A model generated the notes under the pieces. The model had not been told where the DNA came from. It saw nothing but the letters and a program-made list of their open reading frames with translations, and made no database searches. The translations under genes and the position numbers were made by a program. DNA of 63,585 bases, filler included, from Chrysochromulina tobinii (Eukaryota), in NCBI GenBank assembly GCA_001275005.1. It is 6 parts of 6 records of this genome, joined end to end, with 100 filler letters (N's around TTAATTAATTAA, not from the genome) between each part and the next. Parts side by side here need not be neighbours in the genome. Positions count along the whole stretch, not along the records: positions 50,961 to 54,947 come from JWZX01000279.1; 5 more parts are not named here. One strand, given 5' to 3'. Of this stretch, positions 26,325-54,947 are shown one piece after another; the stretch's first letter is position 1; every line of letters starts with the position of its first letter.

Positions 26325-29300
26325 TCACAAGCTGGCCGCACATCGCAAGAGCGGGTCAGCGGCCAGGAGGCCGTCGTCGCCACCGCCGGTAGCGCAAGCG
26401 TGGTCCACTTTGCCAAACGATGCAGGATCGATTGGATCGAGTGGATCGATTGGATCAGTCGCGCCGCCCCGAGCGCCGTCCGTTACAGCCGGCGCCTTAC
26501 CCGAGATGGTCGACGTGCCCACCGCATCGCGGAGCACCGATGGGTCTGCCTCATCCTCCCACTCGTCGTCGCGACCAGTCTGTGGACGTGAGGAGCGCGA
26601 TGCTGCTCCCGACGGTATTCTCGGCTGCCAAGAGCGCACAGAGCCGTCGGGTGCCAATGGTCGAGGGTCGGCCGGCACTTGGTCGTCTGTGCGGCGCCCG
26701 TGGTGAGCCTGAAAGTAGCTGCTTGACATCGTCTTCGGGTTGAAGTCAGTGCTCTCCTCTCCCAGCCGGACACGCGAGGAGGTGGGCGCCTCAGGCAGCC
26801 AGGAGCCCACGAGACTCGGGTCGAGCTTCGGGGGCGCGTCAACAGGTGCCACTTGCTTGTCTCTGGACACTGCCGCGTAGTAATAGCTGCTGTCGAGACC
26901 GCCACGCGCGCCCCCCAGGCTGGCGCAGGTGTAGCTAATTGGTGGCGTCCGCTTGCCGTCCGCCGGCCCACCCGGCATTGCGTGCCGCTCCTTGCCCAAG
27001 TCGCGGAGATCCTTGTGCGTGACGCAGTCGTGGCCGCAGCGTGCACACAGGAAAAAGGAGGGATCGTTGTCCTGACGCACCTTGCCACGGCCGTGAAGGA
27101 GCACAGTGGTGCGGCCATGCTTTTGGATGTACGCGTTGCAGCTGCAGCCTTTGGCCTTGCAAGCGCCGCGCGGGATGCCGGTGATGTCTTCGTCGCCCAC
27201 ACCGCTGAACGTGGGTAGCTGGCTCGCGCGGATCGCGCGCTCGGTGCGTCGCGTGCACTCGGCGAGCACGCGCGCCTCCTTGTACGCCTCGAGCAAGATT
27301 GGGTCCCGAGGCGCAAACTCGAGCGCCTTGCACAGGCGCGCCGCCGCATCGGAGCCGCGCTCGAGCGACATGAGCGCCCGGGCCGCGCGAAGATAAGCCT
27401 TCGGCCACTCGGGTGCGAGCTCGATGGCCTTCTCCGCGTCCCGAAGGGACTCCTCGTGCATGTGCAGCATCTCGTACGCGTACGAGCGGTTGGACCAGAG
27501 CTCCTTCATCTTAGGGCGCATCTCGATGGCGTCGTCGAGGTACTTGATGGCACGCCCCAGGTCCATGCCGCCCATGTGGTCGGTGGCCATTTGCTTCAGC
27601 AGTATCGCCTTGCGCTCGAGCTCGAGCTCCTGGGGACTCATCTTGGCCACGCGCTGCGCCTCCTCCACGGCCTCCCAATCGAAATCTTCGGTGATGCGTC
27701 TGGCTGCATTCGCCGTCGCCGACTGCCGCTTCTCCTCGGATGCGAAGGAGCCCGAGATACCGGCGCCCGTGCCGTTCACGCCCTTCTTGGCCCACGAAAC
27801 TCCCTTTGCGTTGCGTATCGCCGCCATGCGCGCACCAATGCTCGCCTTCTTTTGCCGCTCCCAGCCATCTTTGTCGGTCTCGGCAGCCAAGCCACTGATG
27901 CCGCCCATAGCAGCATCCTTTCCGTCAGATCCGCCCGTCGCATTCGTCGCGGCCGCTTCGGCGACCCCAGCCAGGTTGAGGGGTCGGAGCGCGATCACCT
28001 CGCCCTTCGGGAGCTGCACGTTGTACCGGCCTGTCTCACAATTGTACGAGGTGCAGACGCCGCGGCTGCCGTTTAGCGCCGGACGGGCGAGCAGGCCCTC
28101 AATGGTCACTGAACGGCCGACCAGCGACGGTGTGTCTGCCCGCGCGGATGCCTTCGTGGCCGGGAGCAGCGACGGCCGAGGCTTGGCGTCGCCGGAGTCG
28201 CACGGCGCGCACGAAAGCGGGCTACCCGCCGCGTCGGCAGGCAGACTGACTGCGCCGACTGCAGATTGGCGGCGGAGGGCTGTAGAGCGCAATGCCTTCT
28301 CCTCGCCGACTACGCGAGTCTTTGGAAACGTGTGTGGCGCCTCTCCGTGGCCCATGGCAAGATATTCTTGAAGAAGTTCGGGCCGGGAGGCCATTGATAT
28401 CACCTCGGCGACTCCCGCGTCTGCCTCCTCACCTTCGGCAACCTCGCCCTCGGCGGCGTCGCCCTCATCATGCACGGCACCCAGGGACGCACCCGTGGGG
28501 GCCGCCGACGGAGTAGCCGCGATGGCCGCGCGCTCGAGAAACTTGCTCCTCGCGGCTGCCCGCTCCGCTTGGCGCGCTAAAGCCTCGGCTTTCTCCTTCT
28601 CAAGTCGCTCGCCAGTCCCCTCGGGCCTGCTGAATTCCCGCCCGTTCTCGACGTACGTCTCCATCTCGACCGCGCCGTCGAAGCTCGAATCGTACCTGTC
28701 GCCGGTCTGGCGCTGTTTGAGCAGCGTCTCGAATTCTGCCGCCTCGTGAGGCGCCATCTCGACAGTCGCGCGCTCGAGATCGCGCCTCAGATGGGGATTG
28801 TGTGGCTGGAGCAGGAGGGCCTCGTGCCAGTGGAGCGCTGCCTCCTTCCAGTGCCCAAGCTGACCCTCGATCATGCCCAGGGAGATGAGGCCCTCGGTCC
28901 AGCCGGGGCGCTCGCGCACAACCTGCAACGCGTCGGGCAGTGCGAGATCGTACCGGCCCATCCCTATGTGCTCCTTCGCACGCTGGTGGACGAGGAACTG
29001 ATCGTTTGGCGTGTGTGCGATCGCCATTGATAGTAGTTCGACGGCCTCCTCATGCATACCCCATTTGGAGTGGATCGCCGCGAGGTTGCGCAGCGCAAGG
29101 GCTTTGTCAGCAGGCTCGGCAAATTTTTGGATGTCAGCGAGGACCGGCTGGCGCTCAGCAGAAAAGGCTGCCTTCTTGCGCTTCTGGGGCGCATGTCCTG
29201 CGCGGCGCCAGCCTCGGCAGAGCTCCTTTACAGCGAGCCACGCCTGCCGTAGGTCCTTGCTCGCCTCGGGCCCTAGGCGAGAGTCAGCCTTGCAGCCGAG

Positions 29301-31095
29301 CTGAAATGTGCGCATTGCGGCATCATAGTCGCACAGGCGCAGCTCAGACTGGCCGCGAAGCAGGTGGGCACGTCCCTCCTTACGCGCAAGCTCATTCTTC
29401 TGCTGGCGCGTCATCAGCTTGATGCCGAGCTCTTTAGGGTTTTCCCACGGCTTGATGTCGGGGTCGTGCTGAAGCCCGTACATGTAGCACGCCGTGGCAG
29501 CATCTTCAACGGCAAGTGCGAAGCGGTTCGATTGCGCGTGAGCAACTGAGCGCTCGCAGTAGAGCTCCGCATCGTCAACTGCAGCGAGTGGGGGCGGTGG
29601 GACAAGCGAGCAATCGTGTCCACAGTCAGCAAGGCAACGTCGCTAGCAGTGAGTTTGAGGCAGCGGTGGACGTGGCGGTAACGGTGGCGACAGCGAGCGC
29701 CAACGGCAAAGCGTAGCAGCAAAGCGTACCCTTGTTTGTGATGAGCTTGTTAAGCTCGCGTATGGCTTGCTCGGGTCGGCCTAGCCGATTGCATTCCTGC
29801 GCGAGCGCGAATCCAGACAGCGAGACAGCCCCAGTCTCTGGCACGGGCGGCGGTGTGTGTGCATGAGCTGTTAAGCGTGCTACCTCCGCCTGGAGATGCT
29901 TGGAGCTTGGATCGAGATCGAGGGCCCTCGAGTAAGCAGCGAGTGCGTCGTTTGCGCGCCCAAGCCCCTCGAGAGCGGCACCCAGGCGCCCATGCGCCTT
30001 GGAATAGCCGGGGTCGAGCTCGATGGCCTGGGTGGCATCCTCGAGACCCTGCTGAAACTCGCGCATGGCCAGCCACGCCGCCGCGCGGTTGGACAGCAAC
30101 TTGACGTCCGTGGGGCGCCGGCGCAGCGCTTGGGACCATAGTTGCTGCGCCTCGTTGTAGTCACCAGCTTCGTAGGCCATCTTGCCCTGCGCTTGCAGCA
30201 CGTCTGCGTCCGCCACCCGGCCCACACCATGCCAAGAAACCTCGCCCTGCAGTATCTTCGCTGCCAGCGGTGGCGTTGGTGGCGGCGGCGCGGCGGTGCC
30301 AGCTTCTGCTAAGAGCTGCAAAAGCCGCGAGAGCTCCATGCGCATCGCTATCGAGTCGGGTGTTGCCTTGAGGCCACGCTCATAGGCTGCAATGGCCTCC
30401 TTTGGGCAGTTGAGAGCCGCTAGCGCTGCGCCGTGGCGCCCGTGCGCCTTGCCCCAATTTGGTCGCAGCTGCACGGCCTTGAGCGCATCATCGAGGGCAT
30501 CGTCCGCTTGCCCAAGCAGTAGGTGCGCAGCCGAGCGATTCGAGAGCACCGTTGCGTCGTCAGCGCCGGGGGATCCGAGTGCCGCCGTGTACAGCGACAC
30601 CGCCTCGGCGTAGCGCCCTTCTTTGAAGGCAGCGCTGCCGTCCGCTTGAAGGCGCTCTGCAGTCGGCCTAAGAGCTTCCAGAGTGGCCTCGTTCGCAATT
30701 GATGCACTAGGCAGAAGATCTAATGGAGCGCCTTCTAATGAAGAACTAATAGGCAAAGGATCTAACCCAGCGCCCTTCTCTATCACCGGTGAGTTGGGGC
30801 GCACATCGCCAGGCGCGCATAGAAGATCTGACGGCGAAGCAGCGGAAGATTCAGTAACGCAAGTGGCAGCTCCCCTGCATGAAGCGGAAGCCATCTCCAC
30901 CATCGCCTGCTCGACCTTCTTACGCAAACCCATTTTAGAGAACCCAAGGCGCTTGAGCTCTTCTGTCAGCGCCGAACGATCGGTGCGAGCATATGCTGCC
31001 AACCTCTCGAGTGATCCACCGTGGCTGAGAAGGGCGGCGCTCAGTTCTTCCATGCCATGTGCTTCGGAGAGGCCCTGAACCCTGTCGCGAGACAT
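26325..31095 (-). CDS. large multi-TPR protein (~1539 aa) with C-terminal Cys/His cluster
   Basis: Multiple STI1-like TPR triplets (LSNRSAAHL...WGKAHGRHGAAL; WSNRSYAYE...WPKAYLRAARAL). The two ORFs join in frame via GT-AG intron 29729-29579. Confidence 0.85.
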
Positions 31096-31838
31096 CGGCC
31101 AAACATATACAAGTAGGGCGCGAAACTTATAAACTTATTTGTAGTTCCTGTTGTGGTTCACGTTCACGTAAGGTGCCATCTCGGCAAGACGCACGACCGC
31201 CCGTGGAGAGAGATTTGAAACTGACCAAGCTACCTACACATTGGCAGGACCCCCTGAATTGCGGGGGGGAATTTGAAGGGGATGTCGGCGTGTGAGAGTA
31301 TGGCTTTATGGCGGCATGCGACATGGGAAAATTGGACGGCATGCACGACACGGCGGGACACGGGCATGGGAACTTGCTTGTTTTCCTCGTTGCTTGTCGG
31401 TCCCGTGGAGACGTTCCTAAGACGTTCCGAGGTGTAGGCCAGCACGGATGTGTTACCTCCGAGTCCCAGTGAGCCAGACGCCCGCTCCCAGTCCCCGACA
31501 CGGGCCCGGTGGCTGCGTAACTTGTAATTGATTTCTTACGGTCACTTAACGGTTACTCACTTAGGGCCGGTGTTGGACCGGTGTAACTTGAAAATTTCGA
31601 GCACCGCCGAGCGTTGCTGAGGCACATGCTGTCGAGCGCCGCCGCTGGCCGCGCTGCGCACCGTGCAGAGGCCAGAGGCAGAGCGAGCAGCGTCCGAGCC
31701 ACGCGTACGCGACAGAACACGTGACACGCGCGTACGCGACCGTGACATAGTTCAATCCCCGTCAATCAGAGTCGGCGTCCTGAGGTGTCCTACGCTGGTT
31801 ATTTAGTTCTATAGTTGATGATAGAAGACGGCCCGAGA

Positions 31839-37333: not shown

Positions 37334-37702
37334 GCCCGAAACGGTGGAGTCTGTCGTAGGCTGGTTGTTGGTGTCCGGGGGCGCACGCGCGACACCAACA
37401 AGGGTGCACGTACGCAAGGGGGGAGCTCGGGGTCCGGTCTCATATGATGTCCTCGTTTTGCGACAATAGCGGGCAATTATTCAATAGAGGTAACGGAGGT
37501 ACACGCCTTGCGTTGGTACGCCGGATCTATTTCTAAAGACTAAACGCCACACCGCGCGCCGGCGGAGTAATGTGCGCCATGAGGGTTCTAACGCCCCAGA
37601 TTGTCGTGCAAGAGCGAAGAGTTCCTCAGAAGAACTTGAACTTGAACTTGCGCTCTCGAAAACCTGCTATCGAAACATAGGCGCTGTGTTGAACGTGCGT
37701 CC

Positions 37703-40147
37703 ATGGCGCCGAGCTTGGAGAGCTTGTGGCGCGACGCTCAGCATGCGCATTTGGCCGGCGACATGGCGCGCGTGCAGCGCAGTCTGCGCGCGGCGATCGA
37801 CATTGCGCCACAATTCGGCGACGCCTACTTTGAGCTTGCCAATACGCTGTCTGCTGGCGGTCGCACGCAGGAGGCGGTCCGTGGCTACCGCGCGGCATTG
37901 CGCACAGGCAACGTTGGAGACGTGCCGATGGCGCACAACAACCTTGGTAACACTCTTGCCGATCTCGGCGACTTGGAAGCGGCCACGCGCGAATACGAGC
38001 GCGGGCTGCGCTTGGCACCCACGTTCACTTACCTGCATAATGGGCTCGCAAATGTCTTCACCTCGCAGTCGCGCAACGCCGAGGCGGCCGCAACGCTGGC
38101 GCGGGCGATACGTGTGCGGCCCACTGCGCATTACGCTTACTACAATCTCGGCAACGCCCTGCGGCGGATGCAGCGATTCCCCGAGGCCGAGGCAGCCTTC
38201 GTGTCTGCAATCAGAGCAGTCCCAGACGATGGACGCTACTCGCAAGGCCTTGGCCAGCTCTGCCACGAGACCAAACGTTTGAGCGAGGCGGTGGCCTTTT
38301 ATGCAGCAGCAGAGGGCCAGCTTGCGAGCAAGGGCTGGGCGCGCTCCGCTCCGTTAGAGCGCGACCATGCCTCAGCTCTGCGCGAGGCGAAGCGGTTCGA
38401 CGAGGCCGTGCACCGAGCCTTCGAAGCGCAGCGCCTCGAGCCGGATGGCGTCGCCGGTCTCTCCACGTTGACAACCGTGCTCAGGGATGCGATGCGGCTC
38501 GAGGAGGCCGCCGTCTACCACCAGCGTGAGGCGCTCGCCGACGTGCGCACTGCAGCCGCGACCGCGAACGAAGCTGAAAAAGCGGCGGCCGTAACGGCCT
38601 TTGCCACCCAAGCGGCGCGTGCGCGCCATCGTATTATGAGACGCTTGGTGCTCTTCTGTCGGCCATCGTATTCGGGCGAGCGTTCAGATGTGCCGGGTAG
38701 TTGGGCGTGGGGTCCACGGGCCAAGGAGCGCGGCATTGGAGGCTCCGAAAGTGCCGTCATCTCAATCTCGCGCGAGCTCGCAGCCCTCGGCTGGGCTGTG
38801 GAGGTGTATGCCAACCCTCCGAGCGAGGACATTGGCGTCGACGACGCAGGTGTCCTCTGGCTTCCGTACTGGTCGTATGGCACCCTCGAGCCGCCAGGCC
38901 GTGGTATCAGTGCTCCCGTTCATGTGTTCATCGCCTGGCGCTTCGCGGAGGCCCTCGCACTTGGTGCGGAAGCGTGGCGTCGATACTTGTGGCTACACGA
39001 CGAAGTACGGCCGGAAACCGTGCCTCGTGCAGCGCTGCCACTCCTCGAGGGCGGCGGAATTTTCGTGCTCTCGTCCTTCCATCGCTCGCAGTTGCCCGAA
39101 TACGCGCAGCGGCTTGCCATGCTCACTGCAAACGGCCTCGACGCCTCGGCTCTGGCGGATGGGGCTAATGCAAATGACCGATTCATCTACGCATCGACCC
39201 CGAGTGCTGGCCTGCACCTTCTTCTCTCCATGTGGCCACGCGTGCGCAGCGCTATCAAAACGGCCAGGCTCGACGTATACTACGGCTTCTGGCCGTACGC
39301 CATGTGGAACGACCAGCCTCACCTCATCAAGCTACGCAAGCTCATCGAGCCGCTGCTTGAGCAGCCAGGTGTTCATTACCATGGCATGCGCTCTGAGGTG
39401 GAGCTGGCAGCAGCCTACGCAGCGGCAGGCTTCTACGCGTACCCGACCGACAAGGCCGAGACGTCTGGCATCGCCCTCATGAAAGCGCAGGCGTGCGGGT
39501 GCGTGCCCGTCACCTCGGGGCAGCCCATTTCGGCGTTGCCGGAAACGTGCGGCGAATTCGATCTTGGGGCGACCGGCCGCTCTGGCTATATTGGCCAGGA
39601 TCTGCAGTGGCAAGAGGACTTTTTGCGTGCGCTGCTCGCTGCTGCGCAGCGGCCTCCTTCTGAGCTGAATGCGTTTCGTGCGCGCATGAAGGTATCCGCC
39701 CGTCGTCGCTTCAGCTGGTCGTCGGTCGCAAAGCAGTGGACGTCGTTCTTCAATCAGACGGCTGATGTGCAGACGAGTACTAATGACCAGCCTGCCTCAG
39801 TGCCACGGCGAACGCCGCTGCCATCGTCGCTGATCCTGTCGCCTCGGTCCACGTCACAGCCGTCCTGGTCGGCGCCGTCTCCAGTACCTGCAGGCCCTCC
39901 ACCATCACCGCCACCACTGCCAACGAGCCGAACGCGCCGGAAGGGTTCAGGGCAAACGGTTTTCCTCGAGGTTGGCCTTGGCGGGCAGGCCGAGGAAGTC
40001 CTCGACGCACACCCTAGGGATGAGGCGGCGGCAACAGAAGCGGAGCGCACCGCGACGTTGCTGGAGCGGCTTCACGATCAGCGCGCCCGGCGCCTCCATC
40101 TCGAGCAGCGCGTCATTGACTTGTCTCAACACGCCGGCGATATTTAA
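37703..40147 (+). CDS. TPR-repeat plus GT-B (GT4-like) glycosyltransferase
   Basis: N-terminal TPRs (AHNNLGNTLADLG, AYYNLGNALRR); GT domain IGGSESAV...ELAALGWAVEVYAN, YLWLHD, FIYASTP..GL and YPTDKAETSGIALMKAQACGCVPVTS. Confidence 0.85.
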   Translation: MAPSLESLWRDAQHAHLAGDMARVQRSLRAAIDIAPQFGDAYFELANTLSAGGRTQEAVRGYRAALRTGNVGDVPMAHNNLGNTLADLGDLEAATREYERGLRLAPTFTYLHNGLANVFTSQSRNAEAAATLARAIRVRPTAHYAYYNLGNALRRMQRFPEAEAAFVSAIRAVPDDGRYSQGLGQLCHETKRLSEAVAFYAAAEGQLASKGWARSAPLERDHASALREAKRFDEAVHRAFEAQRLEPDGVAGLSTLTTVLRDAMRLEEAAVYHQREALADVRTAAATANEAEKAAAVTAFATQAARARHRIMRRLVLFCRPSYSGERSDVPGSWAWGPRAKERGIGGSESAVISISRELAALGWAVEVYANPPSEDIGVDDAGVLWLPYWSYGTLEPPGRGISAPVHVFIAWRFAEALALGAEAWRRYLWLHDEVRPETVPRAALPLLEGGGIFVLSSFHRSQLPEYAQRLAMLTANGLDASALADGANANDRFIYASTPSAGLHLLLSMWPRVRSAIKTARLDVYYGFWPYAMWNDQPHLIKLRKLIEPLLEQPGVHYHGMRSEVELAAAYAAAGFYAYPTDKAETSGIALMKAQACGCVPVTSGQPISALPETCGEFDLGATGRSGYIGQDLQWQEDFLRALLAAAQRPPSELNAFRARMKVSARRRFSWSSVAKQWTSFFNQTADVQTSTNDQPASVPRRTPLPSSLILSPRSTSQPSWSAPSPVPAGPPPSPPPLPTSRTRRKGSGQTVFLEVGLGGQAEEVLDAHPRDEAAATEAERTATLLERLHDQRARRLHLEQRVIDLSQHAGDI

Positions 40148-40710: not shown

Positions 40711-41674
40711 GCCATCGCATCCGCCGCCATCGGCGCCGCCGCCCTCGACCCCACCGCCCTCGCTCCCGCAACCCTTCGCCACCGCCGCCCTCGCCCTCGC
40801 CTCCACCGCCCTCGCTCCCGCCGTTGCCCTCGCTCCCGCCGCCCTCGGCGTCGCCCAGCCCGCCGCCGCCATCACCACCGCCTCCATGCAACCCGCCCGA
40901 GCCACACCCGCCCCCCCACCGCCGCCCTCGCCCTCACCCCCTGAACCCTCTCCCCCACCATCGCCGAAGCCACCATCGCCGGAGATGAGCGTCGTTGACT
41001 TCGCCCTCGAGCTCGCCGGCGACGTCTCCTCCTTCACCCCGAGCGTGCGTACCGAGATGAAGAGTGCGATTGCGGCTCGGGCGGGCGTCGACCCATCGGC
41101 GGTGGAGTTGACTGTCACGTCGGGCAGCGTCATCGTTGGCGTGCGCATCCTCACGCCAACGGTCATGGCGACCTCGGTGCAGTCGACAATGGCCAGCGCG
41201 ACGAGCAACTCGAGCAGCGCGACCGCTCTGCTCGCGAGCGTCACTGGCGTCCCGATCGCCGTGCTTGCGGTCGTGACGGCACCCACTGCTACGGCGGACG
41301 TCGCACCGCCGCCGCCGCCGCCGCCAAACGCCCCCTTTGTCATCAGCGCCGGAGGGGGCGAGATCAACATCTCGTCATCGTCCTCGTCCCTCGTCATCAG
41401 CGCCGGTGGGGGCGAGATCAACATCTCGTCATCGTCCCTCGTCATCGCCTCGCTGGCCGTGAGTGCGGCGCTTCTGTGCGGCCTGGTCATCTGCTGCACG
41501 GCGATGGTCTGCTGGTGGATGAGGCGCAGGGCAGTCGAGCTGCGGCGCCAAGACGTCAACGACAGGCCACGCAATACATCCGCGGGCACGACCTCCGCAG
41601 ACAAGCTTCCTAAGCAGCAGCCACACAATCGCAGCAGGGCGAGGGTTATAGCCTTGTCACCACCTCCACTGCTC

Positions 41675-41726
<52 letters not shown>

Positions 41727-42310
41727 GCATCGAGATGAGCGGTCGCTTCGACCGCCATTCCTCCGAAACGGAAGGCTCGTCCCATGCAGACGGTGCCGAG
41801 GGTGGCGCACAGCCGACGATGGCGGGCGTCATCGGCGCTTCGGGTAGTAACACGATCCGCACGCGCATAATGGCGGAGCGCTCGCGCATGCAGGACATGC
41901 CCGACATGGTGAGCCAGCAAAAGGAGGAGGTACAGAATGCGGCGGTGATGCCGGCGCGGGATACCAGGGTAACTACCAGTACCAAGGGACCCGGCGCTCC
42001 TTCTAAGGACGATGCCTCGCCGCCGCCATACGCGCCGCAGACCGCCTCGTCCGAGGGCGCATTGCATGCATTCCAGGTCTGGACCTCTCGGAGCATAGGG
42101 GGCGCCTTGCACGCATTCGAGGTCCAGGGAGCCTCTCGGAGCATAGGGGGCGCCTTGCATGCATTCGAGGTCCAGGGAGCCTCTCGGAGCATAGGGGGCG
42201 CCGCCCCAGTTGTGATGCCGCATTTGGGTGAGGACTCCATCGTGCTGCAGGAGGCAGATATCGCCAACTTCTGTGTGATGTGTGATATTGAGGCCGAGTT
42301 GGACGCTTGA
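40711..42310 (+). CDS. 3' part of a type-I membrane protein: SPPP stalk, SEA-like domain, TM helix, low-complexity cytoplasmic tail
   Basis: SPPP repeats (frameshifted near the contig end); VVDFALELAGDVSSFT...AVELTVTSGSVIV; TM LVIASLAVSAALLCGLVICCTAMVCWWM followed by RRR; poly-Gly; three 48-bp repeats near 42055-42200. Confidence 0.75.
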
Positions 42311-44383: not shown

Positions 44384-46055
44384 ATGCTGCGCCTTCTGCT
44401 CGTCGCTTTACCACTTGTCGTCGCATCGCCGGCGGCGTTCGACGCACAGGATATCGACGCCCTTCAGTTCGAGGTGCAGTTTCCGCTGCAGATCGAGGTG
44501 CGATCTCCGCCCGAGTCCTACTAGAGTCCTACCCGAGTCCCGCCCTCTTCGCCCAGCCGCCACGCGAGAACAACACGACAGTCCCGACACACACTCCACT
44601 CCGCACGCACGACACCCGCCAACCGCACACGTCGCAATGGACGCGCCTCGGCGCTAGAATGCGGGCAAGACGATCCAACCTTCGATCTACTTCGTCACCA
44701 ACCTCATCACAGCCCAGGGATACCAACCCACCATCCACAGGTGTGCCCCCCAGCCCGGCCGGCTATCTCGCATGCGGCGCAGCTTCGGTCGGCCCTGCCG
44801 CTGCGCGCGATATGCGCGCGAGGCCGTTGCGCATGCTGCACGTGCACGTGCACGAGGCCGCGCGCGCGCGCGATGTCCGCTCCCGCGCCTGCACGACTCC
44901 GTAGACTCCGCGCCCACCGAGGCGCGATGCAACTTACGCTGGCCATCGGCACGTGCGAACGCGCCGCCTCGCTTGTTTTGCTGACGGCTTGCGCGTTGCT
45001 TCCCCGACGCAGGCAGCCGCGGCTGCGAGCGATCGGGCACGACGGCCACCTCGCCCTCGACATCTCCGCCACACGACCGGTAGGTGCAACGTCGACACCA
45101 CAGTCACAAGAGGATCCGGCCGCCGTCACGCCAACGCTCTCCCGCATGGCCCAGGCGGCGTGGACCTGTGCCTCTTAAGCCGGGCGCGGGCGTCCTCGAG
45201 GCTGCGGCCCCTATGCGGCCCCGTCGGCGCACTGCTCGACCCACTCACCATCAACAGCGGCCCCGTCGACTCCGTCCTGGTCATCGGCGCCATGCGAACC
45301 AAGGGCGTTGTCACGCCGGCGCCGCCTCTCGCCACGGGTCCACCACATCACCGCCTCTCGCACGACGCCAGCCCACACTCACCTGTGTAGCACTCGCCTG
45401 CATCTATACACACCACACACTCACGTCACCGCTTGCCACTCCCAGCCCGCTTCCACTCCACCGCCCGTGCCCAGCTGACACGTTTGTCGTGCCTGCGCGC
45501 AGCCCTCGCACGACAAGACCTTCTCGCCGCCCGCGGCGGTCGGCGAGACCCCTGGTTCGTCCTACCAGCTTCATGAGGACAACAACGCCTCGGTCGCTAC
45601 CGGCCAGGGCGCAACGCACGATGAGCCGCTTGCGGTGCGCGCAATCACTGCACTGCACGAGTGCGAGCGCAATCACTGCACGAGTGCGAGCCAGGCGCCA
45701 GCAGGCCGCGCCCATTACGGCGCCCTATTTCCCCAAGGGGACGCCTATGGCCACCGCGCCATGATCGCCCCTGCCTCTCCACGCCCAGTACGGCGCCTTC
45801 GTTGCCAGGGGATGCCTGTGGCCACCACGGCATGATCGCCCCTGCCTCCACCCGCCACGTGGCATGTCCACGCCACGCAGCCATGCTCTCCCAATGAGCT
45901 CACGACCGAGCGATGGTACGCTGCCATCTCTCGCCCGCAGGTGCATTCGGGCAAGACGACCGACACGGCGCTCTCGCCTTCGCAGCCACCGGTCTCCAGC
46001 CCACCGCGCCCCCCCGCGTCAACATCTCTGGCACCCGCGGCACCGCCTCCTCCGC

Positions 46056-46088
<33 letters not shown>

Positions 46089-49000
46089 CGCCGCCATTAA
46101 TCAAATTGTGCACCGATGAGTGGAGCAGTGGCGCCTTCTACTTAAATGGCGCACCCATGCTGTGCTCCTACTTCTCAGCACAGCCCTCTGCTTGCGCTTC
46201 CTATTCCATCGCGCGGACTACTTGCCCGGTCGCGTGCGGAACGTGTTCGACTCCCCAGCCTGGCCCCTCGGACCTCTTGGCATTGGCAGGCGCCGCAACG
46301 AGCCACCCTGTTGCTGGGGTGCACGCAGTACAGCCACATCCGCCGATGCCACTCGCCCGGCCATCGCCGCCACCGCAACTGCCATTGACGGAGCTTGGAC
46401 GAGCCATCCCGGGCAGCCAGCATGATGGGCGACAGCTCGAGCACTCCACAACGATCGTGGGCTCCGGGTCAATCGTGGGCAGTGTCGCCTCAGCGTCCCT
46501 CGTGCCCAGCCACCGCCGTGAGCTGCAGACCCAGGTAGGCACTGTCGCCGGCCTGAACAGTGCACTCGCCAACACGGCGGTTGGCCGCATCGTCCTTGCC
46601 TCCGGCACCTACTACCTCACCGCCACGCTCAGCATCACCAGGAGCGTCATCCTCGAGGCAGCACCGGGAGCCACGGTCGTGCTACACGCAAATGCGAACT
46701 CCTCCAGTCGGCGTCGTGTGCTGAATATCGACTTGGGCTCATCGGACGTCGTACAACTGATCGGGCTCAGCATCACGGGAGGCTACGCGGATGAGGATGG
46801 CGGCGGTGTCCGTGTCTCGGGAGGCACGGTGACCATGTCGTCGTGCACCATCAGTGGGAACACAGCTGGCGGGTCTGCGAAAGGATCGGATCGGCGGGGC
46901 GGTGGTGTTTGTGTCTGGTCCGGCGCGGTGACCTTCTCATCGTGTACCATCACTGGCAACACAGGTAGCGATGGCGGTGGTGTCTATGTCAGGGGTGGCA
47001 CACAAAGGCGGCGGTATCTATGTCTTTGGAGAGACAGGCACAGTGGTAATCTCATCGTGCACCATCAGCGGGAACACAGCTACAGGTGCATTTGGGGGTT
47101 CTGGGGGAGGCGGTGTCTTTGTCTATGGTGGCACAGTGGCCATCTCGTCTTGCACCATGTGCACCATGAGCGGGAACACAGGAAACCCTGGGAACAATGT
47201 CTATGTCTATGCCTGGGCCCGGTGGGGAGCCACCGTCTGCTCCTGGCCAACGACCCCCACAGGCGTCTCTGGCTCAGTCTCAACTTGCCCGGCGCCACCG
47301 CCGCCGCCATACCCTCCTAGGGGAGCGCCGTTGCCGCCGCCGCCCTCGCCACCGCCGCCCTCGCCGCCGTCGCCGCCGCCGCCACTGCTGCTACCCTCCC
47401 GCTCGCCGACACCAACTTCAGGCAAGCATCACGAAAGGCGAAAACTCCTTCATTTTCACGGACCGCACACGCATCACCCGCACCATCCGCACACTCCGCA
47501 CACGCATCACCCGCATCATCCGCATCATCCGCACACACCAGCTCCTTCGCCCCCGCCACTGCGCTTGCCGCCGCCGCCCTCGCCGCCGCGCTTGCCGCCA
47601 TCGCCATCACCATTGCCGCCGTTGCCGCCGCCGCCGTATCCGCTTGGAACCGAGGCGGTGAGCACTGTCTTCAGTCTGGTCAGTGCACTTGCCAACACGG
47701 CGGTTGGCCACATCTTCCTGGACCCCGGCACGTACATTCTCAACGCCGAGCTCAGCATCACCAGGAGCGTCGTCCTCGAGGCGGCCGTGGCAGGCTCGGT
47801 CGTGCTGGATGCACAAGCCAGCTCTTCGAGTCCGCGCCATGTGCTATACATCAACCCGGGCTCGTCGGGCGTCGTGCGACTGATCGGGCTCAACATCACC
47901 GGGGGGTACGGACAGTCTTATCCGTCGACAGGCGGCGGTGTTGCTGTCTTTGGAGGCACAGTGGCCATCTCATCGTGCACCATCAGTGGGAACACAGCTG
48001 GCTATATGTTCGGACCGGGATGGACCGATCCTGCAGGCGGTGGTGTCTTTGTCAGTGGTGGCACGGTGGCCATCTCATCGTCTACCATCAGTGGGAACAC
48101 AGCTCGCCGTTGTGCGAATTCTAACGATTGTACGTATTATAATGGCGGCGGTATCGCCGTCCAGGGTGGCTCAGTGACCATCGATTCGTGCACCATCAGC
48201 GGGAACTCGGCTGGTCGTGGCGGCGGTGTTTACATCTCTGGTGGCACGGTGACCTTGTCATCGTGCACCATCACTGGCAACACTGGCCATGGTGGATGGG
48301 GAGGTGGCGTCTTTGTCTCTTCCGGCACGGTCACGATAACGTATTCCTCGATCGACGGGAATACAGCAGGTAATGGGCCCAATGTCTATTTTACCGATGT
48401 TTACGGAGGCACCATCTGCTCCTGGGCAACGACCCTCACCGGCGTCTATGGCACAGTCTCGACTTGCGCTCGTCCCCCTCCGGCACTTCCGCCCTCGCCG
48501 CCCTCGCCGCCCTCGCTGCCCTCGCCGCCCTCGCTGCCGCCGCCGCCCTCACCGCCGCCGCCCTCACCCCCGCCGCCCTCGCCCTCACCGCCGCCGCCCT
48601 CGCCCTCACCTCCGCCGCCGCCATCGCCACCGCCGCCGCCCTCGCCACCTCCGCCCTCGCCGCCTCCGCCCTCGCCCTCACCGCCGCCCCATGAGCTGCA
48701 GACCCAGGTGAGCACTGTCTCCAGCCTGGCCAGTGCACTCGCCAACACGGCGGTTGGCCGCATTGTACTGGCCTCCGGCTCCTACTACCTCAGTGCCACG
48801 CTCAGCATCACCAGGAGCGTCGTCCTCGAGGCGGCGGCGGCAGGCTCGGTCGTGCTGCACGCACAAGCGAGCTCCTCAAGTCGGCGGCGTGTGCTGTACA
48901 TCAACCCTGGCTCTTTGGGCGTTGTGCAACTGATCGGGCTCAACATCACGGGAGGCTACATCAATTCATTTGATCAAAATGGGACGTTTTATGATTCGTA

Positions 49001-50860
49001 TTATTGGGGCGGCGGTGTCTACGTCTCTTCCGGCACGGTCACGATAACGTCTTCTTCGATCTATGGGAATGCAGCTGTAAATGCAATTGGCGGTGGTGTC
49101 GCTGTCAAGGGTTGGGGAACATCAGTGGCAATCGTGAACTCCCAGATCTTCTCCAACACAGCTACCTACTTTGGCGGCGGTGTCTTTGCCCAGGGCCACA
49201 CAGTCTCAATCGTCAACTCCCAATTGAATTCCAATCAAGCTGCAGATGGTGGCGGTGTCTATGTCGACGTTGGCACAGTGGCTATCACATCGTCCACCAT
49301 CAGTGGCAACACAGCTGCAACTGGAGGCGGTGTCTTTGTCAACAGTGGTGGTGGTCAAAGCATGACTACGGTGACTTTGTCATCATGCACCATCAGCGGG
49401 AACACTGCTTATTCTAATCCGGGATTTTCGTCGGGGAATGGTGGTGGTGTCTATGTCCTGGGCGGCACAGTGGCCATCTCATCGTGCACCATCAGTGGGA
49501 ACACAGCTTATTATGCACAAGGGTCCAGTGTCTATGTCAATGACTATGGCAACAGCTATGGCCCAGGCACGGTCTGCTCCTGGGCAACGACCCTCACCGG
49601 CGTCTATGGCTCAGTCTCAACTTGCCCAGCGCCGCCGCCCCCACCTTCGCCGCCGCCGCCCCCACCTTCGCCGCCGCCACCCTCGCCCTCGCCGCCGCCT
49701 CCTTCCCCCTCGCCCCAGCCGCCCTCGCTGCCGCCACCGCCTCCACTTCCGCCATCGCCGCCGCCATCGCCGCCGTATGCGTCGGGGACCGCGGCGGTGA
49801 GCACTGTCTTCAGTCTGGCCAGTGCACTTGCCAACACGGCAGTTGGCCGCATTGTCCTGGCCCCCGGCACGTACTTCCTCAGCGCCGAGCTTAGCATCAC
49901 CAGGAGCGTCGTCCTCGAGGCGGCGGTGGCAGGCTCGGTCGTGCTGGATGCACAAGCGAGCTCCTCGAATCAACGCCGCGCGCTGAGCATCAACCCGGGC
50001 TCATCGGGCGTCGTGCAACTGATCGGGCTCAACATCACCAGGGGGTACGCACAGAATGGCGGCGGTGTCTATGTCCAGGGTGGCACAGTGGTCATCTCAT
50101 CGTGCACCATCAGTGGGAACCAAGCTCCAAACTTTGGCGGCGGTGTCGTTGTCAATTCTGGCACGGTCACGATAACGTCTTCCTCGATCTACGGGAATAC
50201 TGCTGGCGGCTATTCGACTGGATATGGAGGCGGTGTCTACATCTCTTCCGGCACGGTCACGATAACGTCTTCCTCGATCGACGGGAATGCAGCTTCAATT
50301 GGCGGTGGTGTCTATGTCGGGTATTCTGGCGGAGTGACCATCTCGACGTGCACCATAAGTGGGAACACAGCTGATCAAGGAGGTGGTGTCTGCGCCTCTT
50401 ACACCCCGGTCACGATAACGTCTTCCTCGATCTACCGGAATACAGCTACACAATGGGGCGGCGGTGTCTATGTCTATTACGCCACCGTCACGATTACGTC
50501 TTCCTCGATCACCGGCAACACAGTTTCTGGATCGAATTCGCATTGGCAAGGGGGCGGCGGTGTCTATGTGGATGGCACAGTGGCCATCTCATCGTGCACC
50601 ATCAGTGGGAACACAGCTGCATACGGCGGCGGTGTCCATGTCCGCTCTGGCACAGTGACCATCTCATCGTGCACCATATTCAACAATGGGAACAACAATG
50701 TCTACGTTGCAGAAGGAGCCACCGCCTGCTCCTTTGAAACGATCCTCACCGGTGTCGTTGGCATAGTCTCATTTTGCCCGGCACCTCCGCTAACTCCGCC
50801 ACCTCCGCCATCTCCAAGCCCACCCGAGCCGTCCCCGCCGCCGCCACCTTCGCCGCCGCC
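44384..50860 (+). CDS. secreted Pmp-like parallel beta-helix repeat protein with SPPP linkers (four modules, intronless from 45941)
   Basis: Signal peptide MLRLLLVALPLVVAS at 44384; the 5' exon structure to the acceptor at 45940 is uncertain. ShK-like CSYF...CPVACGTC. Four modules (~46530, 47650, 48700, 49790), each ALANTAVGRIVLA.GTY.L...NITGG + (GGGVYV.GGTV.ISSCTISGNTA)n + CSW.TTLTGV. Frameshift at ~47003; the ORF runs into the gap. Confidence 0.8.
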
Positions 50861-50960
50861 NNNNNNNNNNNNNNNNNNNNNNNNNNNNNNNNNNNNNNNN
50901 NNNNTTAATTAATTAANNNNNNNNNNNNNNNNNNNNNNNNNNNNNNNNNNNNNNNNNNNN
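50861..50960. other. assembly linker or gap
   Basis: N44-TTAATTAATTAA-N44. Confidence 0.99.
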
Positions 50961-53900
50961 ACCAGGAGCGTCATCCTCGAGGCGGCCGTATCAGGCACGG
51001 TCGTGCTGAATGCACAGGCGAGCTCTTCGAGTCAGCGCCGTGTGCTGTCGATAAACCCGGGCTCATCAGGCGTCGTGCAACTGATCAGGCTCAACATCAC
51101 GGGAGGCTACATCGACTATGTATGCGCGCTCAGATCTTCAAAACTTCCCATCGCCCCGATGGGAAAATGCCTTGTTGACATGTCCATTTCGATTCTCATC
51201 TTTTATGATGGGTGCTGCCTTGAACTACCAGCCTGGAGTACGTGCTATCTGTGCCTGAAACTTCACAAGTTCCCATCGCCCCGATGGGAAGATTGCTGAC
51301 GTGCTTGCCCCGACTCTCGCTTGCACAACTGCGAACGCTTCGGTCAACTACAGAGGGTACACGCCACAGAGACCTTGCAAATTTCCCGTCGCTCCCATGG
51401 GAGACTCACGTGTTGCTTGTTGCTTGCAGGGCGTTGGTGTCTCCGTCGCTTCTGGCAGGGTCACGATAACGTCTTCCTCGATCTACGGGAATACAGCTTA
51501 CGATGTGCGTGCTCATGTTCAAAAGTTCCCATCGCTCCGATGGGAAGATTGCTGACGTGCTTGCCTCAACTCTCTCTTGCACAACTGCGGATGACGCTAT
51601 GGTCAACTACAGAGTGTACGTGCCGCAGAGACTTGAAATTTCCCCATTGCCCCGATGGGAGATTTGCTGACGCGCTTGCCTTCACTCTCGCTTGGCAACT
51701 GCGGCCGACGCTCCTGTCAACTACAGTATGTACGTGCCACAGAGACCTCGAAATTTCCCCATTGCCCCCATGGGAGACTCACGTTTTGCTCGTTGTTTGC
51801 AGGGCGGCGGTGTCTTTGTCGATGGTGGCTCAGTGGCCATCTCTTCGTGCACGATCAGTGGGAACACAGCAAGCGGGATGTTAGGCGGGGTGCACACTCG
51901 TGCTCAAAATTTCCCATAGCCCCGATGGGAGACTCACGTTTTGCTCGTTGTTTGCAGGGCGGTGGTGTCATAGTCTTGGGAGGCACAGTGTCAATTGTGA
52001 ACTCCCAGATCTACTCCAACACAGCTACTCTCGTGCGCACTCATCTTCAAAAGTTCCCATCGCCCCCACGGGAGACTCACGTTTTGCTCGTTGTTTGCAG
52101 GGAGCCGGTGTCTATGTCGCTTCCATTACCAGCGTGCCAGCGGTAACAATAACGTCTTCCTTGATCACCGGCAACACAGCTTCATCTGTGCGTGCTCATG
52201 TTCAAAATTTCCCATCACCCCGATGGGAAAATTGCTGACGTGCTTGCCCCGACTCACGCTTGCACAACTGCGAACGCTTTGGTCAACTAGGGGGTGCATG
52301 CCACAGAGACCTTGCAAAGTTCCAATCGCCCCAAGGGGGGACTCACGTTTGTTTTGCTCCTTTTTGCAGGGCGGTGGTGTCATAGTCTCGGGAGGCAGAG
52401 TTGCCATCTCGTCGTGCACGATCAGAGGGAACACAGCTTCAATTGTACGTGTTCAAAGTTCCCATCACCACCCCCATGGGAGACTCACGTTTTGCTTTTT
52501 GTTTGCAGGGCGGCGGTGTCTATGTCCAGGGTGGCACAGTGACCATCTCATCATGCACCTTCAGTGGGAACTCTGGTTTTGTGCGTGCTTATCTTCAAAC
52601 TTTCCCATTGCCCCCATGGGGTGCAGAGAATCACGTTTGCCAACCTTACGCTGTAGTGACCACTGTGACCTCGCGTTCCTTATTCCCTGCCCAGGGGGCC
52701 AATGTCTATGTCCAAGGAGGCACGGTCTGCTCCTGGGCAACGACCCTCACCGGCGTCTCTGGCACAGTCTCAGCTTGCCCGGCACCCCCCCCGCAGCTGC
52801 CATCGCCACCGCCATCGCCACCCCCTTTGCCACCGCCCCCCTCGCCGCCGCCCTCACCTCCACCACCCTCGCCATCGCCACCGCCTCCCTCACCGCCACC
52901 ACCTTCGCCACCACCCTCGCCACCACCCTCGCCACCACCTTTGCAGACGGCGGTGAGCACCAGCGCCGGCCTGATCGGTGCACTCGCCAACACAACTGTC
53001 AGCCACATTGTCCTGGCCCCCGGCACCTACTACCTCAGCGCCGAGCTCAGCATCACCAGGAGCGTCATCCTCGAGGCGGCCGTATCAGGCACGGTCGTGC
53101 TGAATGCACAGGCGAGCTCTTCGAGTCAGCGCCGTGTGCTGTTGATCAACCCGGGCTCATCGGGCGTCGTGCAACTGATCAGGCTCAACATCACGGGAGG
53201 CTACATCAACTCTGTATGCGCGCTCAGATCTTCAAAACTTCCCATCGCCCCGATGGGAAAGTTGCTGACGTGCTTGCCTCAACTCACGCTTGCACAACTG
53301 TGGACCCTTTGGTCAACTACAGGGGGTGAGTGCTGCAGAGACCTTGAAAAGTTCCCATCGCCCCCGTGGGAGACTCACGGTTTGCTCGTTGTTTGCAGGG
53401 CGGCGGCGGTGTCTTTGTCCAGGGTGGCACAGTGTCAATTGTGAACTCCCAGATCTACTCCAACACAGCTTACAATGTACGTGCCAGCCACACCTGCAAA
53501 CTTCCCATCGCCCCAATGGGATGCCTTGCTGACACATGCCCAAATCGACTCTCGTCTTGGATGATGGGTGCTGCCTCGATCTATACCAGTATGGGGTACG
53601 TAACATCTGCGCCTGAAACTTCAAAAGTTCCCATCGCCCCCATGGGAGGCCCACATGGGAGACTCACGTTTTGCTCGTTGTTTGCAGGGAGGTGGTGTCT
53701 ATGTCCAATCTGGCAGGGTCACGATAACATCTTCCTCGATCTACGGGAACACAGCGGACAGAGTACGTGCTCATATTCAAAATTTCCCATCGCCCCCATG
53801 GGAAACTCACAATTGCTTGTTGTTTGCAGGGAGGCGGTGTCTACGTCTATTCTGGCACGGTCACGATAACGTCTTCCTCGATCCACGGGAATTCAGCTGT

Positions 53901-54947
53901 CTATGTACGTGCTCATGCTCACAATTTCCCATCGCCCCGATGGGAAAATTGCTGACGCGCTTGCCTCGACTCACGCTTGAACAACTGCGGCCGACGCTTC
54001 GGTCAACTATAGCCGCCTTATGTACGTGCCGCAGAGACCTTCAATGTTTCCCATCGCCCCGATGGGAAAATTGCTGACGTGCTTGCCCGACTCACGCTTG
54101 CACAACTGCGAACGCTTTGGTCAACCTTACTACAGTGGGTACGTGCCACAGAAACCTTGCAATTTTCCCATCGCCCCGATGGGAGACTCACGTTTTGATC
54201 GTTGTTTGCAGGGCGGCGGTGTCTATGTCTCGTCTGGCACAGTGGCCATCTCATCGTCCACCATAAGTGGGAACTCTGCTAGCTCTGTGCGCGCTCACGC
54301 TCTCAAAAGTTCCCATTGCCCCGATGGGAGACTCACAATTAGCTCGTTGTTTGCAGGGCGGCGGGGTTGCTTTCTATGGAGGCACAGTGGCCATCTCATC
54401 ATGCACCATCAGTGGGAACACAGCTGTCAATGTGCGCGCGCATCTTCAAAAGTTTCCCATCGCCCCGATGGGAAAAAGGCTGACGTGCTTGCCTCGACTC
54501 ACGCTTGCACAACTGCGGCCAACACTTCGGTCAACTACAGTATGTACGTGCCGCAGAGACCTTGCAAATTTCCTATTGCCATGATGGGAAAATGCCTTGC
54601 TGACATGCGAGAATCACGTGTGCCAACCTTACGCTGTAGTGACCACTGTTACCACGCGTTCCTTATTCCCTGCCCAGGGTGCCAATGTTTATGTCCAAGG
54701 AGGCACGGTCTGCTCCTGGGCAACGACCCTCACCGGCGTCTCTGGCACAGTCTCAGCTTGCCCAGCACCCCCCCCTCCGCAGCTGCCATCGCCACCGCCA
54801 TCGCCACCCTCACCGCCCTCACCGCCCTCATCGCCCTCACCGCCCCCGCCATCGCCCTCACCGCCGCCCTCGCCCCCGCTGCCACCATCGCCCTCACCAC
54901 CGCCCTCACCGCCGCCGCCCTCACCGCCTCCGCCCTCGCTCCCGCCG
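50961..54947 (+). CDS. Pmp-like beta-helix repeat protein (two modules, partial) split by 23 phase-0 introns and ten microexons
   Basis: Main exons 50961-51119, 51430-51504, 51803-51889, 51958-52032, 52101-52187, 52370-52444, 52509-52580, 52695-53213, 53399-53476, 53688-53762, 53830-53904, 54212-54286, 54357-54431 and 54678-54947. All internal exons are multiples of 3 and GT-AG bounded. Microexons are listed in the findings. Confidence 0.85.
51120..54677 (+). repeat. family of 23 related introns (64-134 bp) with a CCCATCG-CCC-CGATGGG hairpin
   Basis: Consensus GTRCGTGC...AAARTTCCCATCGCCCCGATGGGA..., ending in GTTGTTTGCAG, GGTCAACTACAG, ACCAG or CCTGCCCAG. Confidence 0.9.

What the first reader, a model, noticed from the sequence alone, without database searches (positions are those of the whole stretch)
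51120..54677. Microexon-encoded variable loops in a beta-helix surface protein: a candidate splicing-based diversification system
Seen in sequence: between the ~75-nt coil exons, the long introns resolve into GT-AG introns separated by ten microexons. These are 51232-37 (CCTGGA, PG), 51354-56 (AGG, R), 51613-15 (AGT, S), 51727-29 (TAT, Y), 52291-93 (GGG, G), 53323-25 (GGG, G), 53590-95 (TATGGG, YG), 54013-21 (CCGCCTTAT, PPY), 54136-38 (TGG, W) and 54541-43 (TAT, Y). Every one is a multiple of 3, stop-free, flanked by YAG and GTR, and placed in the loop between GNTA/GGY and GGGV/GANV (e.g. GNSAVY-PPY-W-GGGV, SNTAYN-YG-GGGV). The encoded residues (Y, W, G) match those just before GGG in the intronless modules (DSYYWGGG, TQWGGG, TAAYGGG). 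Established: beta-helix loops form binding surfaces, and symmetric microexons diversify schistosome MEG proteins. Inference: because all exons are phase 0, any microexon or coil exon can be skipped in frame, which would give combinatorial variation of a surface receptor or adhesin down to single residues. I know of no description of this in algae, but I could not search the literature.
Basis: partly seen in the sequence, partly recalled or inferred. Interest (0 to 1): 0.93.

Follow-up and report, generated by a model that had tools for sequence, protein, structure and literature searches.

The report
Shuffled single-codon exon cassettes in alga
In a freshwater alga, genes for rod-shaped surface proteins are built from small DNA cassettes, many carrying an exon of just one codon, joined at a palindrome in the middle of every intron; cassettes turn up between different neighbours in different genes, likely moved by an enzyme not yet found, which would let the alga vary its predicted binding surfaces one amino acid at a time.

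Summary
All ten microexons are real, but the evidence points to shuffling at the DNA level, not exon skipping. Each of the 23 introns holds one palindromic core (TTCCCATC-GCCCC-GATGGGAA). In 125 metagenome loci, related to Chrysochromulina genes, the unit that travels is a cassette: acceptor half-intron, exon, donor half-intron. Half types are coupled across the exon (V=0.94) and independent across the core (V=0.11). Identical single cassettes sit between different neighbours, and exchange points map to the core centre, even between same-type neighbours. Microexons are multiples of 3 (225 of 233), stop-free (0 of 171 single codons), hypervariable and rich in G/Y/N/W/S. Three contigs of paralogous genes lack seven introns exactly, four of them beside microexons; the microexons are kept and no skip form was found (small sample). 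The protein is a predicted Pmp-like beta-helix; several paralogs continue into a membrane span plus kinase or ADP-ribosyltransferase domains. No recombinase was found, and re-sequenced copies show no rearrangement. Closest known: Ectocarpus LRR/TPR exon shuffling and, by analogy, integrons. Ten literature searches and five look-ups of this scan's notes found no description.

The parts
50962..51119 (+). Partial head exon of module 1 (N-cap of beta-helix, ends LNITGGYIDY)
51145..54591 (+). 23 palindromic cores, one per intron, starting near 51145, 51270, 51383, 51526, 51640, 51755, 51911, 52054, 52209, 52320, 52459, 52602, 53239, 53352, 53502, 53628, 53784, 53926, 54048, 54165, 54310, 54454, 54570; the centre (GCCCC) is the inferred exchange point
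   Evidence: exchange point
51232..51237 (+). Microexon PG, in a type-B cassette (about 51164-51270)
51354..51356 (+). Microexon R, type-C cassette (about 51289-51383)
51430..51504 (+). Coil exon (type-K cassette)
51613..51615 (+). Microexon S, type C
51727..51729 (+). Microexon Y, type C
51803..51889 (+). Coil exon, 87 nt
51958..52032 (+). Coil exon
52101..52187 (+). Coil exon, 87 nt
52291..52293 (+). Microexon G, type C
52370..52444 (+). Coil exon
52509..52580 (+). Coil exon, 72 nt
52695..53213 (+). Fixed linker exon: C-cap of module 1, Pro/Ser-rich stalk, head of module 2
   Evidence: a joint 52580-52695 (GT..AG) is seen in contigs of RNA runs X1 and X3, possibly from paralogs
53323..53325 (+). 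Microexon G, type C
53399..53476 (+). Coil exon, 78 nt
53590..53595 (+). Microexon YG, type B
53688..53762 (+). Coil exon
53830..53904 (+). Coil exon
54013..54021 (+). Microexon PPY, type C
54136..54138 (+). Microexon W, type C
54212..54286 (+). Coil exon
54357..54431 (+). Coil exon
54541..54543 (+). Microexon Y, type C
54678..54947 (+). Terminal exon of module 2 (C-cap and Pro/Ser-rich stalk), cut by the assembly spacer
46520..50860 (+). Paralogous gene of the same family with intronless beta-helix modules (separate assembly piece); one module was used for the structure model

Best explanation
This gene belongs to a haptophyte family of Pmp-like beta-helix surface proteins whose coils and loop residues are encoded by exon cassettes (acceptor half-intron, exon, donor half-intron) that change places in the DNA at the centre of a palindrome present in every intron, likely through a site-specific recombinase or transposase acting in trans, and the resulting arrays are likely spliced with every exon included. 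How it would work. (1) Shown: each intron is a donor half from the upstream cassette, a shared core and an acceptor half from the downstream cassette. (2) Shown: cassettes are gained, lost, duplicated and moved within and between genes, with junctions in the GCCCC(G) centre of the core. (3) Follows from the anatomy: inserting a cassette into a core splits one intron into two complete introns, and all exons are phase 0, so splicing erases the junction and the frame always survives. (4) Shown for paralogs: microexon splice sites are used and the exons are kept. (5) Inferred: coil cassettes set the length of the rod, while 1-8-residue cassettes rebuild the loop between GNTA and GGGV, which stacks along one edge; fast change of the single codon adds point variation. 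(6) Inferred: the products are variable receptors or adhesins for viruses, bacteria or prey, since paralogs carry a membrane span with kinase, TIR-like plus kinase, or ADP-ribosyltransferase tails. (7) Inferred and untested: a dedicated enzyme. The time scale seen is between genes and strains, not within a culture.
For: Half types are coupled across the exon (364 of 374 cassettes, V=0.94) and not across the core (283 introns, V=0.11, p=0.31). Of 80 neighbour comparisons for cassettes shared at 96% or more, 42 have a different neighbour; some 99-100% identical single cassettes differ on both sides (L002/L029, L032/L045, L045/L114, L024/L058). 72 of 115 ends of exact shared tracts fall within 20 nt of a core centre, against 27% expected. 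Core positions up to 9 follow the upstream cassette (0 differences in 11 pairs); positions 13-20 follow the downstream one (0 in 14 pairs). Where the swapped neighbours are of the same type and homologous over about 100 nt, 12 of 15 still differ within 12 nt of the core, against about 17% for a crossover anywhere. Orientation is uniform: 910 forward against 6 reverse motif hits. Microexon lengths are multiples of 3 in 184 of 190, 24 of 24 and 17 of 19 cases, and 165 of 170 after de-replication. There are 0 stops in 171 single codons, with 14 expected, and codons differ at 0.2-0.7 per site where the flanks differ at 0.02-0.12. Seven introns are removed exactly in L039, L096 and L059, with microexons kept. 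Beta-helix model pLDDT 94.5, with the long GNTA loops as coil. Receptor tails.
Against: No recombinase or transposase among 94 flanking ORFs (of 142 listed from 25 loci) or the 23 ORFs; the whole genome was not available. Near-identical contig pairs show no cassette change: in 162 pairs, the 6 internal breaks are all partial splicing or the module order of the window. So there is no sign of fast somatic shuffling, though consensus assemblies hide minority forms. Core variants lean to G-U-compatible changes (right-arm A>G 30 against left-arm T>C 6), which fits an RNA hairpin role that could explain the conservation without an enzyme. 4 of 14 same-downstream pairs differ at position 12, and 43 of 115 tract ends lie away from cores, so exchange inside cassettes also happens. 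Cassette pairs are not independent, so p-values overstate certainty. Cores were found by similarity to the consensus, which inflates their conservation. No spliced microexon junction of the window's own gene was seen in the rows shown. No ligand or function was tested.
Confidence: 0.62

Rival explanations
1. The same DNA cassette shuffling, but passive. The palindrome is kept as an RNA hairpin that helps tiny exons splice. As DNA it is a fragile cruciform and the only sequence shared by all cassettes, so ordinary break repair joins cassettes there without a dedicated enzyme.
For: The core folds as a 9-10 bp hairpin in 5 of 6 window introns folded, and as a shorter stem in the sixth. G-U-compatible variants are favoured at some positions. 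No enzyme gene was found. Breaks at a hairpin tip would also map to the centre.
Against: Whole-intron folding z-scores are modest (+0.1 to -2.8), and no compensatory pair changes appear among the commonest variants. Single cassettes arrive cleanly in other genes with both ends at cores. Same-type neighbours offer about 100 nt of homology that is rarely used. The central GCCCC is conserved (93-98%), although as a hairpin loop it need not be.
Confidence: 0.25
2. One reading: each gene makes many isoforms by in-frame skipping of microexons and coil exons, and this is the main source of variety.
For: All exons are phase 0. Alternative splicing of LRR exons is reported for brown algal ROCO genes (PMC11378527, section read). 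RNA contigs show loops of many lengths between coils, though these cannot be tied to a genomic copy.
Against: 0 skip forms against 7 exact single-intron removals that keep the exons. Phase 0 is equally required by DNA shuffling. Skipping does not explain the core, the half-intron coupling or cassettes moving between genes.
Confidence: 0.1
3. The introns are an introner family: whole mobile introns that inserted repeatedly into a once intronless gene, sometimes a codon apart, leaving microexons as by-products.
For: Intronless paralogs exist (window 46520-50860). Introners are reported in Chrysochromulina (bioRxiv 2022.06.06.494994, passages read).
Against: An introner predicts that the two halves of one intron travel together; they do not (V=0.11), while halves across the exon do (V=0.94). 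The arrays occur in this gene family: loci with more than one core show its motifs, except five short loci (597-620 nt) in which my motif screen found none.
Confidence: 0.03

Closest known systems
Ectocarpus ROCO (LRR) and NB-ARC-TPR exon shuffling (PMC3341825: passages and section 27 read; PMC11378527: abstract and section 15 read)
   Same: Algal candidate receptors; one repeat per symmetric exon; exons rearranged within and between genes; variable binding surface joined to signalling domains.
   Different: There, no recombination signal or enzyme is defined in the text read ('palindrom' and 'recombinase' 0 hits in PMC3341825), inverted exons are common and no microexons are mentioned. Here a fixed palindromic junction lies in every intron, orientation is uniform, cassettes go down to one codon, and the scaffold is a beta-helix.
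Bacterial integrons (recalled, not looked up)
   Same: Arrays of same-orientation cassettes joined at palindromic sites; single cassettes move between arrays.
   Different: Eukaryotic; cassettes are parts of one protein joined by splicing; the site is an 18-22-nt near-perfect palindrome, not an attC; no attI or integrase was found nearby.
Schistosome micro-exon genes (PMC10526429: passages read)
   Same: Exons of 3-81 nt, mostly multiples of three, in secreted or surface proteins.
   Different: MEG introns are long (0.1-5 kb) and variety is ascribed to alternative splicing. Here introns are 64-134 nt, modular and homologous, and the variety shown is in the DNA.
Introner elements (bioRxiv 10.1101/2022.06.06.494994: passages read)
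   Same: Families of similar short introns; reported in Chrysochromulina.
   Different: The mobile unit here is centred on the exon and ends in mid-intron: the inverse of an introner.
Chlamydial Pmp / right-handed beta-helix family (PF02415, PF13229)
   Same: GGG(V)/xxGN repeats; predicted parallel beta-helix.
   Different: No autotransporter barrel was seen; eukaryotic stalk, membrane span and signalling tails instead.

Membership tests
Integron | Array of same-orientation cassettes bounded by palindromic sites, moving singly | tested here: met
Integron | Linked IntI tyrosine recombinase and attI site (recalled) | tested here: not met
   No integrase family among 94 of 142 flanking ORFs or 23 ORFs; only flanks of up to 8 kb were examined
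Integron | Cassettes are whole genes with attC structure (recalled) | tested here: not met
   Cassettes are exon units of about 95-140 nt; core is 18-22 nt
Ectocarpus-type exon-shuffled receptors | One repeat per symmetric exon | tested here: met
   145 of 147 coil exons are multiples of 3, 97 of them 75 nt
Ectocarpus-type exon-shuffled receptors | Intra- and intergenic exon rearrangement | tested here: met
Ectocarpus-type exon-shuffled receptors | LRR-ROCO or TPR-NB-ARC domains; inverted exons | tested here: not met
   Beta-helix scaffold; 910 forward against 6 reverse hits
Schistosome MEG | Symmetric microexons | tested here: met
Schistosome MEG | Variety from alternative splicing | tested here: inconclusive
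   0 skip forms, but only three partly spliced contigs; no raw reads
Introner | The whole intron is the unit that spreads | tested here: not met
   Donor and acceptor halves are independent across the core, p=0.31
Pmp-like right-handed beta-helix | Repeat motifs and parallel beta-helix fold | tested here: met
   PF13229 E 4.8e-18 and PF02415 above cut-off for a paralogous intronless module; model and PDB matches. The spliced window protein itself was not folded
Somatically rearranged receptors (V(D)J, VLR) | Rearrangement within an individual or clone | tested here: inconclusive
   No change among 162 near-identical contig pairs; consensus contigs cannot show rare forms

The most novel reading that the evidence does not exclude
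A eukaryotic counterpart of the integron: a host-encoded or domesticated recombinase cuts and joins at an intron-centred palindrome, excises single exon cassettes (probably as small circles) and inserts them into other receptor genes. Splicing hides the scars, so a unicellular alga builds an antibody-like repertoire of beta-helix receptors at single-codon resolution, possibly faster under virus or bacterial attack.
Probability: 0.35. Interest if true: 0.97.

Novelty: categorically new. Interest (0 to 1): 0.9.

Why it matters
Papers on brown algal receptors propose targeted exon recombination but name no site or enzyme (PMC3341825, PMC11378527). Here the junction is a defined sequence with the exchange point mapped to about six bases. 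That makes targeted receptor recombination in an alga directly testable: circle PCR, reporter recombination, pull-down of the core-binding protein. It also shows exon shuffling at its smallest possible grain, one codon, with signs of selection. Hundreds of 3-nt exons in 64-134-nt introns offer a natural test of how very small exons are spliced. Existing gene models appear to read through these introns (42 of 192 proteins fetched show read-through signatures), so the family is hidden in current annotations. If no dedicated enzyme exists, it falls back to a new variant of algal exon shuffling.

Tried and rejected
No whole genome is held, and the metagenome records could not be searched as genomes, so no genome-wide count or recombinase search was possible. 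Viral contigs: 0 matches to the core or to the microexon junction in three scans. Prokaryote genomes: 7 single matches and no arrays, about what chance gives by my estimate. RNA runs: none held half of the words. Laying four runs at 90% likeness was dominated by paralogs (88 of 609, 37 of 503, 24 of 287 and 11 of 74 contigs at 99% or more), and the tables were cut. The joint 53213-53402 there comes from a contig with 10 other letters in about 110 and was not counted as skipping. No stricter read-level view of the window's gene was obtained, so inclusion rates remain open. 192 database proteins gave no microexon junction, included or skipped, matching any of 67 predicted junctions. A PARP ORF downstream of the L061 array was dropped as a tail because the terminal exon stops before it. 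The cytoplasmic tail of L043 has no Pfam hit, and the Atlas did not answer. Three '1-nt exon' calls are probably 15-nt Cys-containing exons with an earlier acceptor, three 7-nt calls are donor mis-calls, and the one stop-containing 6-nt call has an alternative acceptor; I left them uncorrected in the counts. Eight of 133 loci had at most one core and were left out as probable chance matches. The introner model was rejected. The opposite module order in the window against L041/L046 was not counted as rearrangement, because a 640-nt 97% repeat can cause a mis-join. Literature searches found no description. No supplements were read; the supplements of PMC3341825 and the introner family tables of the bioRxiv paper could bear on the novelty claim.
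Full report
Observation. All ten microexons are present as described. The piece 50961-54947 holds 23 GT-AG introns of 64-134 nt. Its 22 internal exons are all multiples of three, and the joined frame is free of stops. The window is stitched from pieces with N/TTAATTAATTAA spacers. Metagenome contigs L041 and L046 carry the same two modules at 99.7-100% identity, in the opposite order and with other DNA upstream. The intronless modules at 46520-50860 are therefore a paralog, and the module order may be an assembly artefact of a 640-nt repeat.

Organism and protein. The named homologs are Chrysochromulina parva and C. tobinii proteins; the species of the window was not determined. An intronless module matches PF13229 and PF02415. 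It folds as a right-handed beta-helix with pLDDT 94.5 and resembles solved beta-helices. Each 25-residue coil has three strands, and the GNTA...GGGV loop is coil, with lower confidence where it is long (blocks 141-150 and 251-260). That these loops stack along one edge is inferred from the constant register. In paralogs the terminal exon runs on in one frame into a membrane span and a kinase (L001), a weak TIR_2 match below cut-off plus kinase (L034), an ADP-ribosyltransferase (L045), or a domain with no Pfam hit (L043) (21 loci inspected). For the window's own gene the contig ends in the stalk.

Every intron has one palindromic core, TTCCCATC-GCCCC-GATGGGAA. Of 392 distinct units between cores, nearly all fall into four types: K with a coil exon, C with mostly one codon, B and E with two codons. 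Boundaries were called by alignment to reference half-introns, without using the reading frame. The acceptor half and donor half around one exon match in type in 364 of 374 cassettes (V=0.94). The donor and acceptor halves of one intron are independent (283 introns, V=0.11, p=0.31). The unit of change is therefore the exon with its two half-introns, which rules out introners.

Cassettes move, and the junction is the core centre. For cassettes shared at 96% or more, 42 of 80 neighbour comparisons show a different neighbour, and several 99-100% identical cassettes differ on both sides. Among 57 non-redundant arrays, 72 of 115 ends of exact shared tracts lie within 20 nt of a core centre, where 27% of positions lie; many end inside the core. 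Bases up to core position 9 follow the upstream cassette (0 differences in 11 pairs), and bases 13-20 follow the downstream one (0 in 14 pairs; position 12 differs in 4 of 14). This puts the exchange at about positions 7-12. Where the exchanged neighbours are of the same type, 12 of 15 differ within 12 nt of the core. Unrelated cassettes do so in 95% of cases, against about 17% expected for a crossover anywhere in the neighbour. Orientation is uniform. These pairs share history, so I give the counts more weight than the p-values. The other 43 tract ends, and a few mixed-type cassettes, show that exchange inside cassettes also occurs.

The microexons are coding and variable. Lengths are multiples of three in 225 of 233 cases, and in 165 of 170 after de-replication at 90%. 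None of 171 single codons is a stop, where 14 are expected from the base frequencies (11 of them TAG; no zero-length calls that could hide one). G, Y, W, N, S, D and F make up 73% of 295 residues. Between cassettes whose flanks differ by 2-12%, the codon differs at 20-72% of sites. That fits diversifying selection, or some targeted change. Loops between coils carry 0 to 6 microexons (43, 17, 9, 4, 0, 1, 1 of 75 loops).

Splicing. Three contigs are copies of other loci (0, 0 and 1 mismatches) that lack 3, 3 and 1 introns exactly from GT to AG: L039 against L001, L096 against L094, L059 against L049. Four of the seven removed introns border a microexon, one of them joining two single-codon exons, and the microexons stay. 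A systematic search of 470 junctions found 6 of these removals and 0 skip forms. The library type of these contigs is not shown. Partly spliced RNA is the simplest reading, and precise intron loss in DNA is the alternative; either way the splice sites are used. RNA runs laid on the window showed the family in RNA libraries and a joint at intron 52581-52694, but were dominated by paralogs. Inclusion in the window's own gene is thus inferred from paralogs, and skipping at low rates is untested.

Mechanism. A cassette inserted at a core centre turns one intron into two complete ones, so any order or number of cassettes gives a readable mRNA. Two inverted arms around a short asymmetric conserved centre, uniform orientation and clean single-cassette moves are what a site-specific recombinase would leave; they also fit a transposase acting on short inverted ends with a 5-bp target (both comparisons recalled). 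Against this: no such gene lies in the flanks examined, the core folds as an RNA hairpin with some G-U tolerance, and 162 near-identical contig pairs show no rearrangement. I put DNA-level cassette shuffling at about 0.9, and the full statement, including a dedicated enzyme and constitutive splicing, at 0.62.

Comparison and novelty. It works like the exon-shuffled LRR and TPR receptors of brown algae. For those, Zambounis et al. did not resolve the mechanism, and Teng et al. state that no site-specific recombinase is known and favour alternative splicing. It is not a member of that family, of integrons, of MEGs or of introners. The passages of the C. tobin genome paper that I saw do not mention it. 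Ten searches of the open library and five look-ups of this scan's notes found no description. Subscription papers and supplements were not seen.

Verdict. Observation confirmed; interpretation partly supported. The real finding is a family-wide exon-cassette system with a defined intronic junction and single-codon cassettes. I class the architecture as categorically new, falling back to a new variant of algal exon shuffling if the passive rival holds. Interest 0.9.

Noticed in passing
window 46520-50860; protein P0001; L015 (225-nt unit): Intronless modules coexist with intron-bearing ones. P0001 is 94% identical to the window module at 49785-50780 but reads into a cassette intron at its last coil, and L015 has two coils fused by RGQH with no intron. 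This suggests precise intron loss through cDNA, or partly spliced RNA in the case of P0001.
   Followed up: partly
window about 46990-47030: The first intronless module changes frame near 47000 (ORFs 45836-47320 and 46932-50912 overlap): a frameshift, an assembly error or an unrecognised splice.
   Followed up: no
window 40711-42310: C-terminal part of another probable family member: Pro-rich stalk, a juxtamembrane domain like that of L045 and P0023, membrane span and low-complexity tail.
   Followed up: partly
L004/L044, L021, L038, L045, L058: Longer type-C microexons of 15-24 nt encode Cys pairs (CASNPC, CFGNC, CWNCG, CLGCSCAC, CYNCG), which may form disulphide-closed loops.
   Followed up: no
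L043:10513-11484: Cytoplasmic tail after the membrane span has no Pfam hit; its motifs recall HET/TIR-like domains (from memory, untested).
   Followed up: partly
L008, L015, L020, L021, L029, L035, L045, L058 upstream of the arrays; P0146, P0150, P0151, P0153: Dispersed family members share a long conserved 5' region, and lie beside unrelated genes (ubiquitin, insulinase, acetyl-CoA carboxylase). Whole genes may have spread as a mobile unit.
   Followed up: no
window 53628-53660; L016, L021: Partial duplications of the core's right arm or of acceptor halves, which look like imprecise joins.
   Followed up: no
window 26325-31134 and 37646-40147: Cluster of TPR-repeat genes, one fused to a glycosyltransferase (O-GlcNAc-transferase-like).
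   Followed up: no
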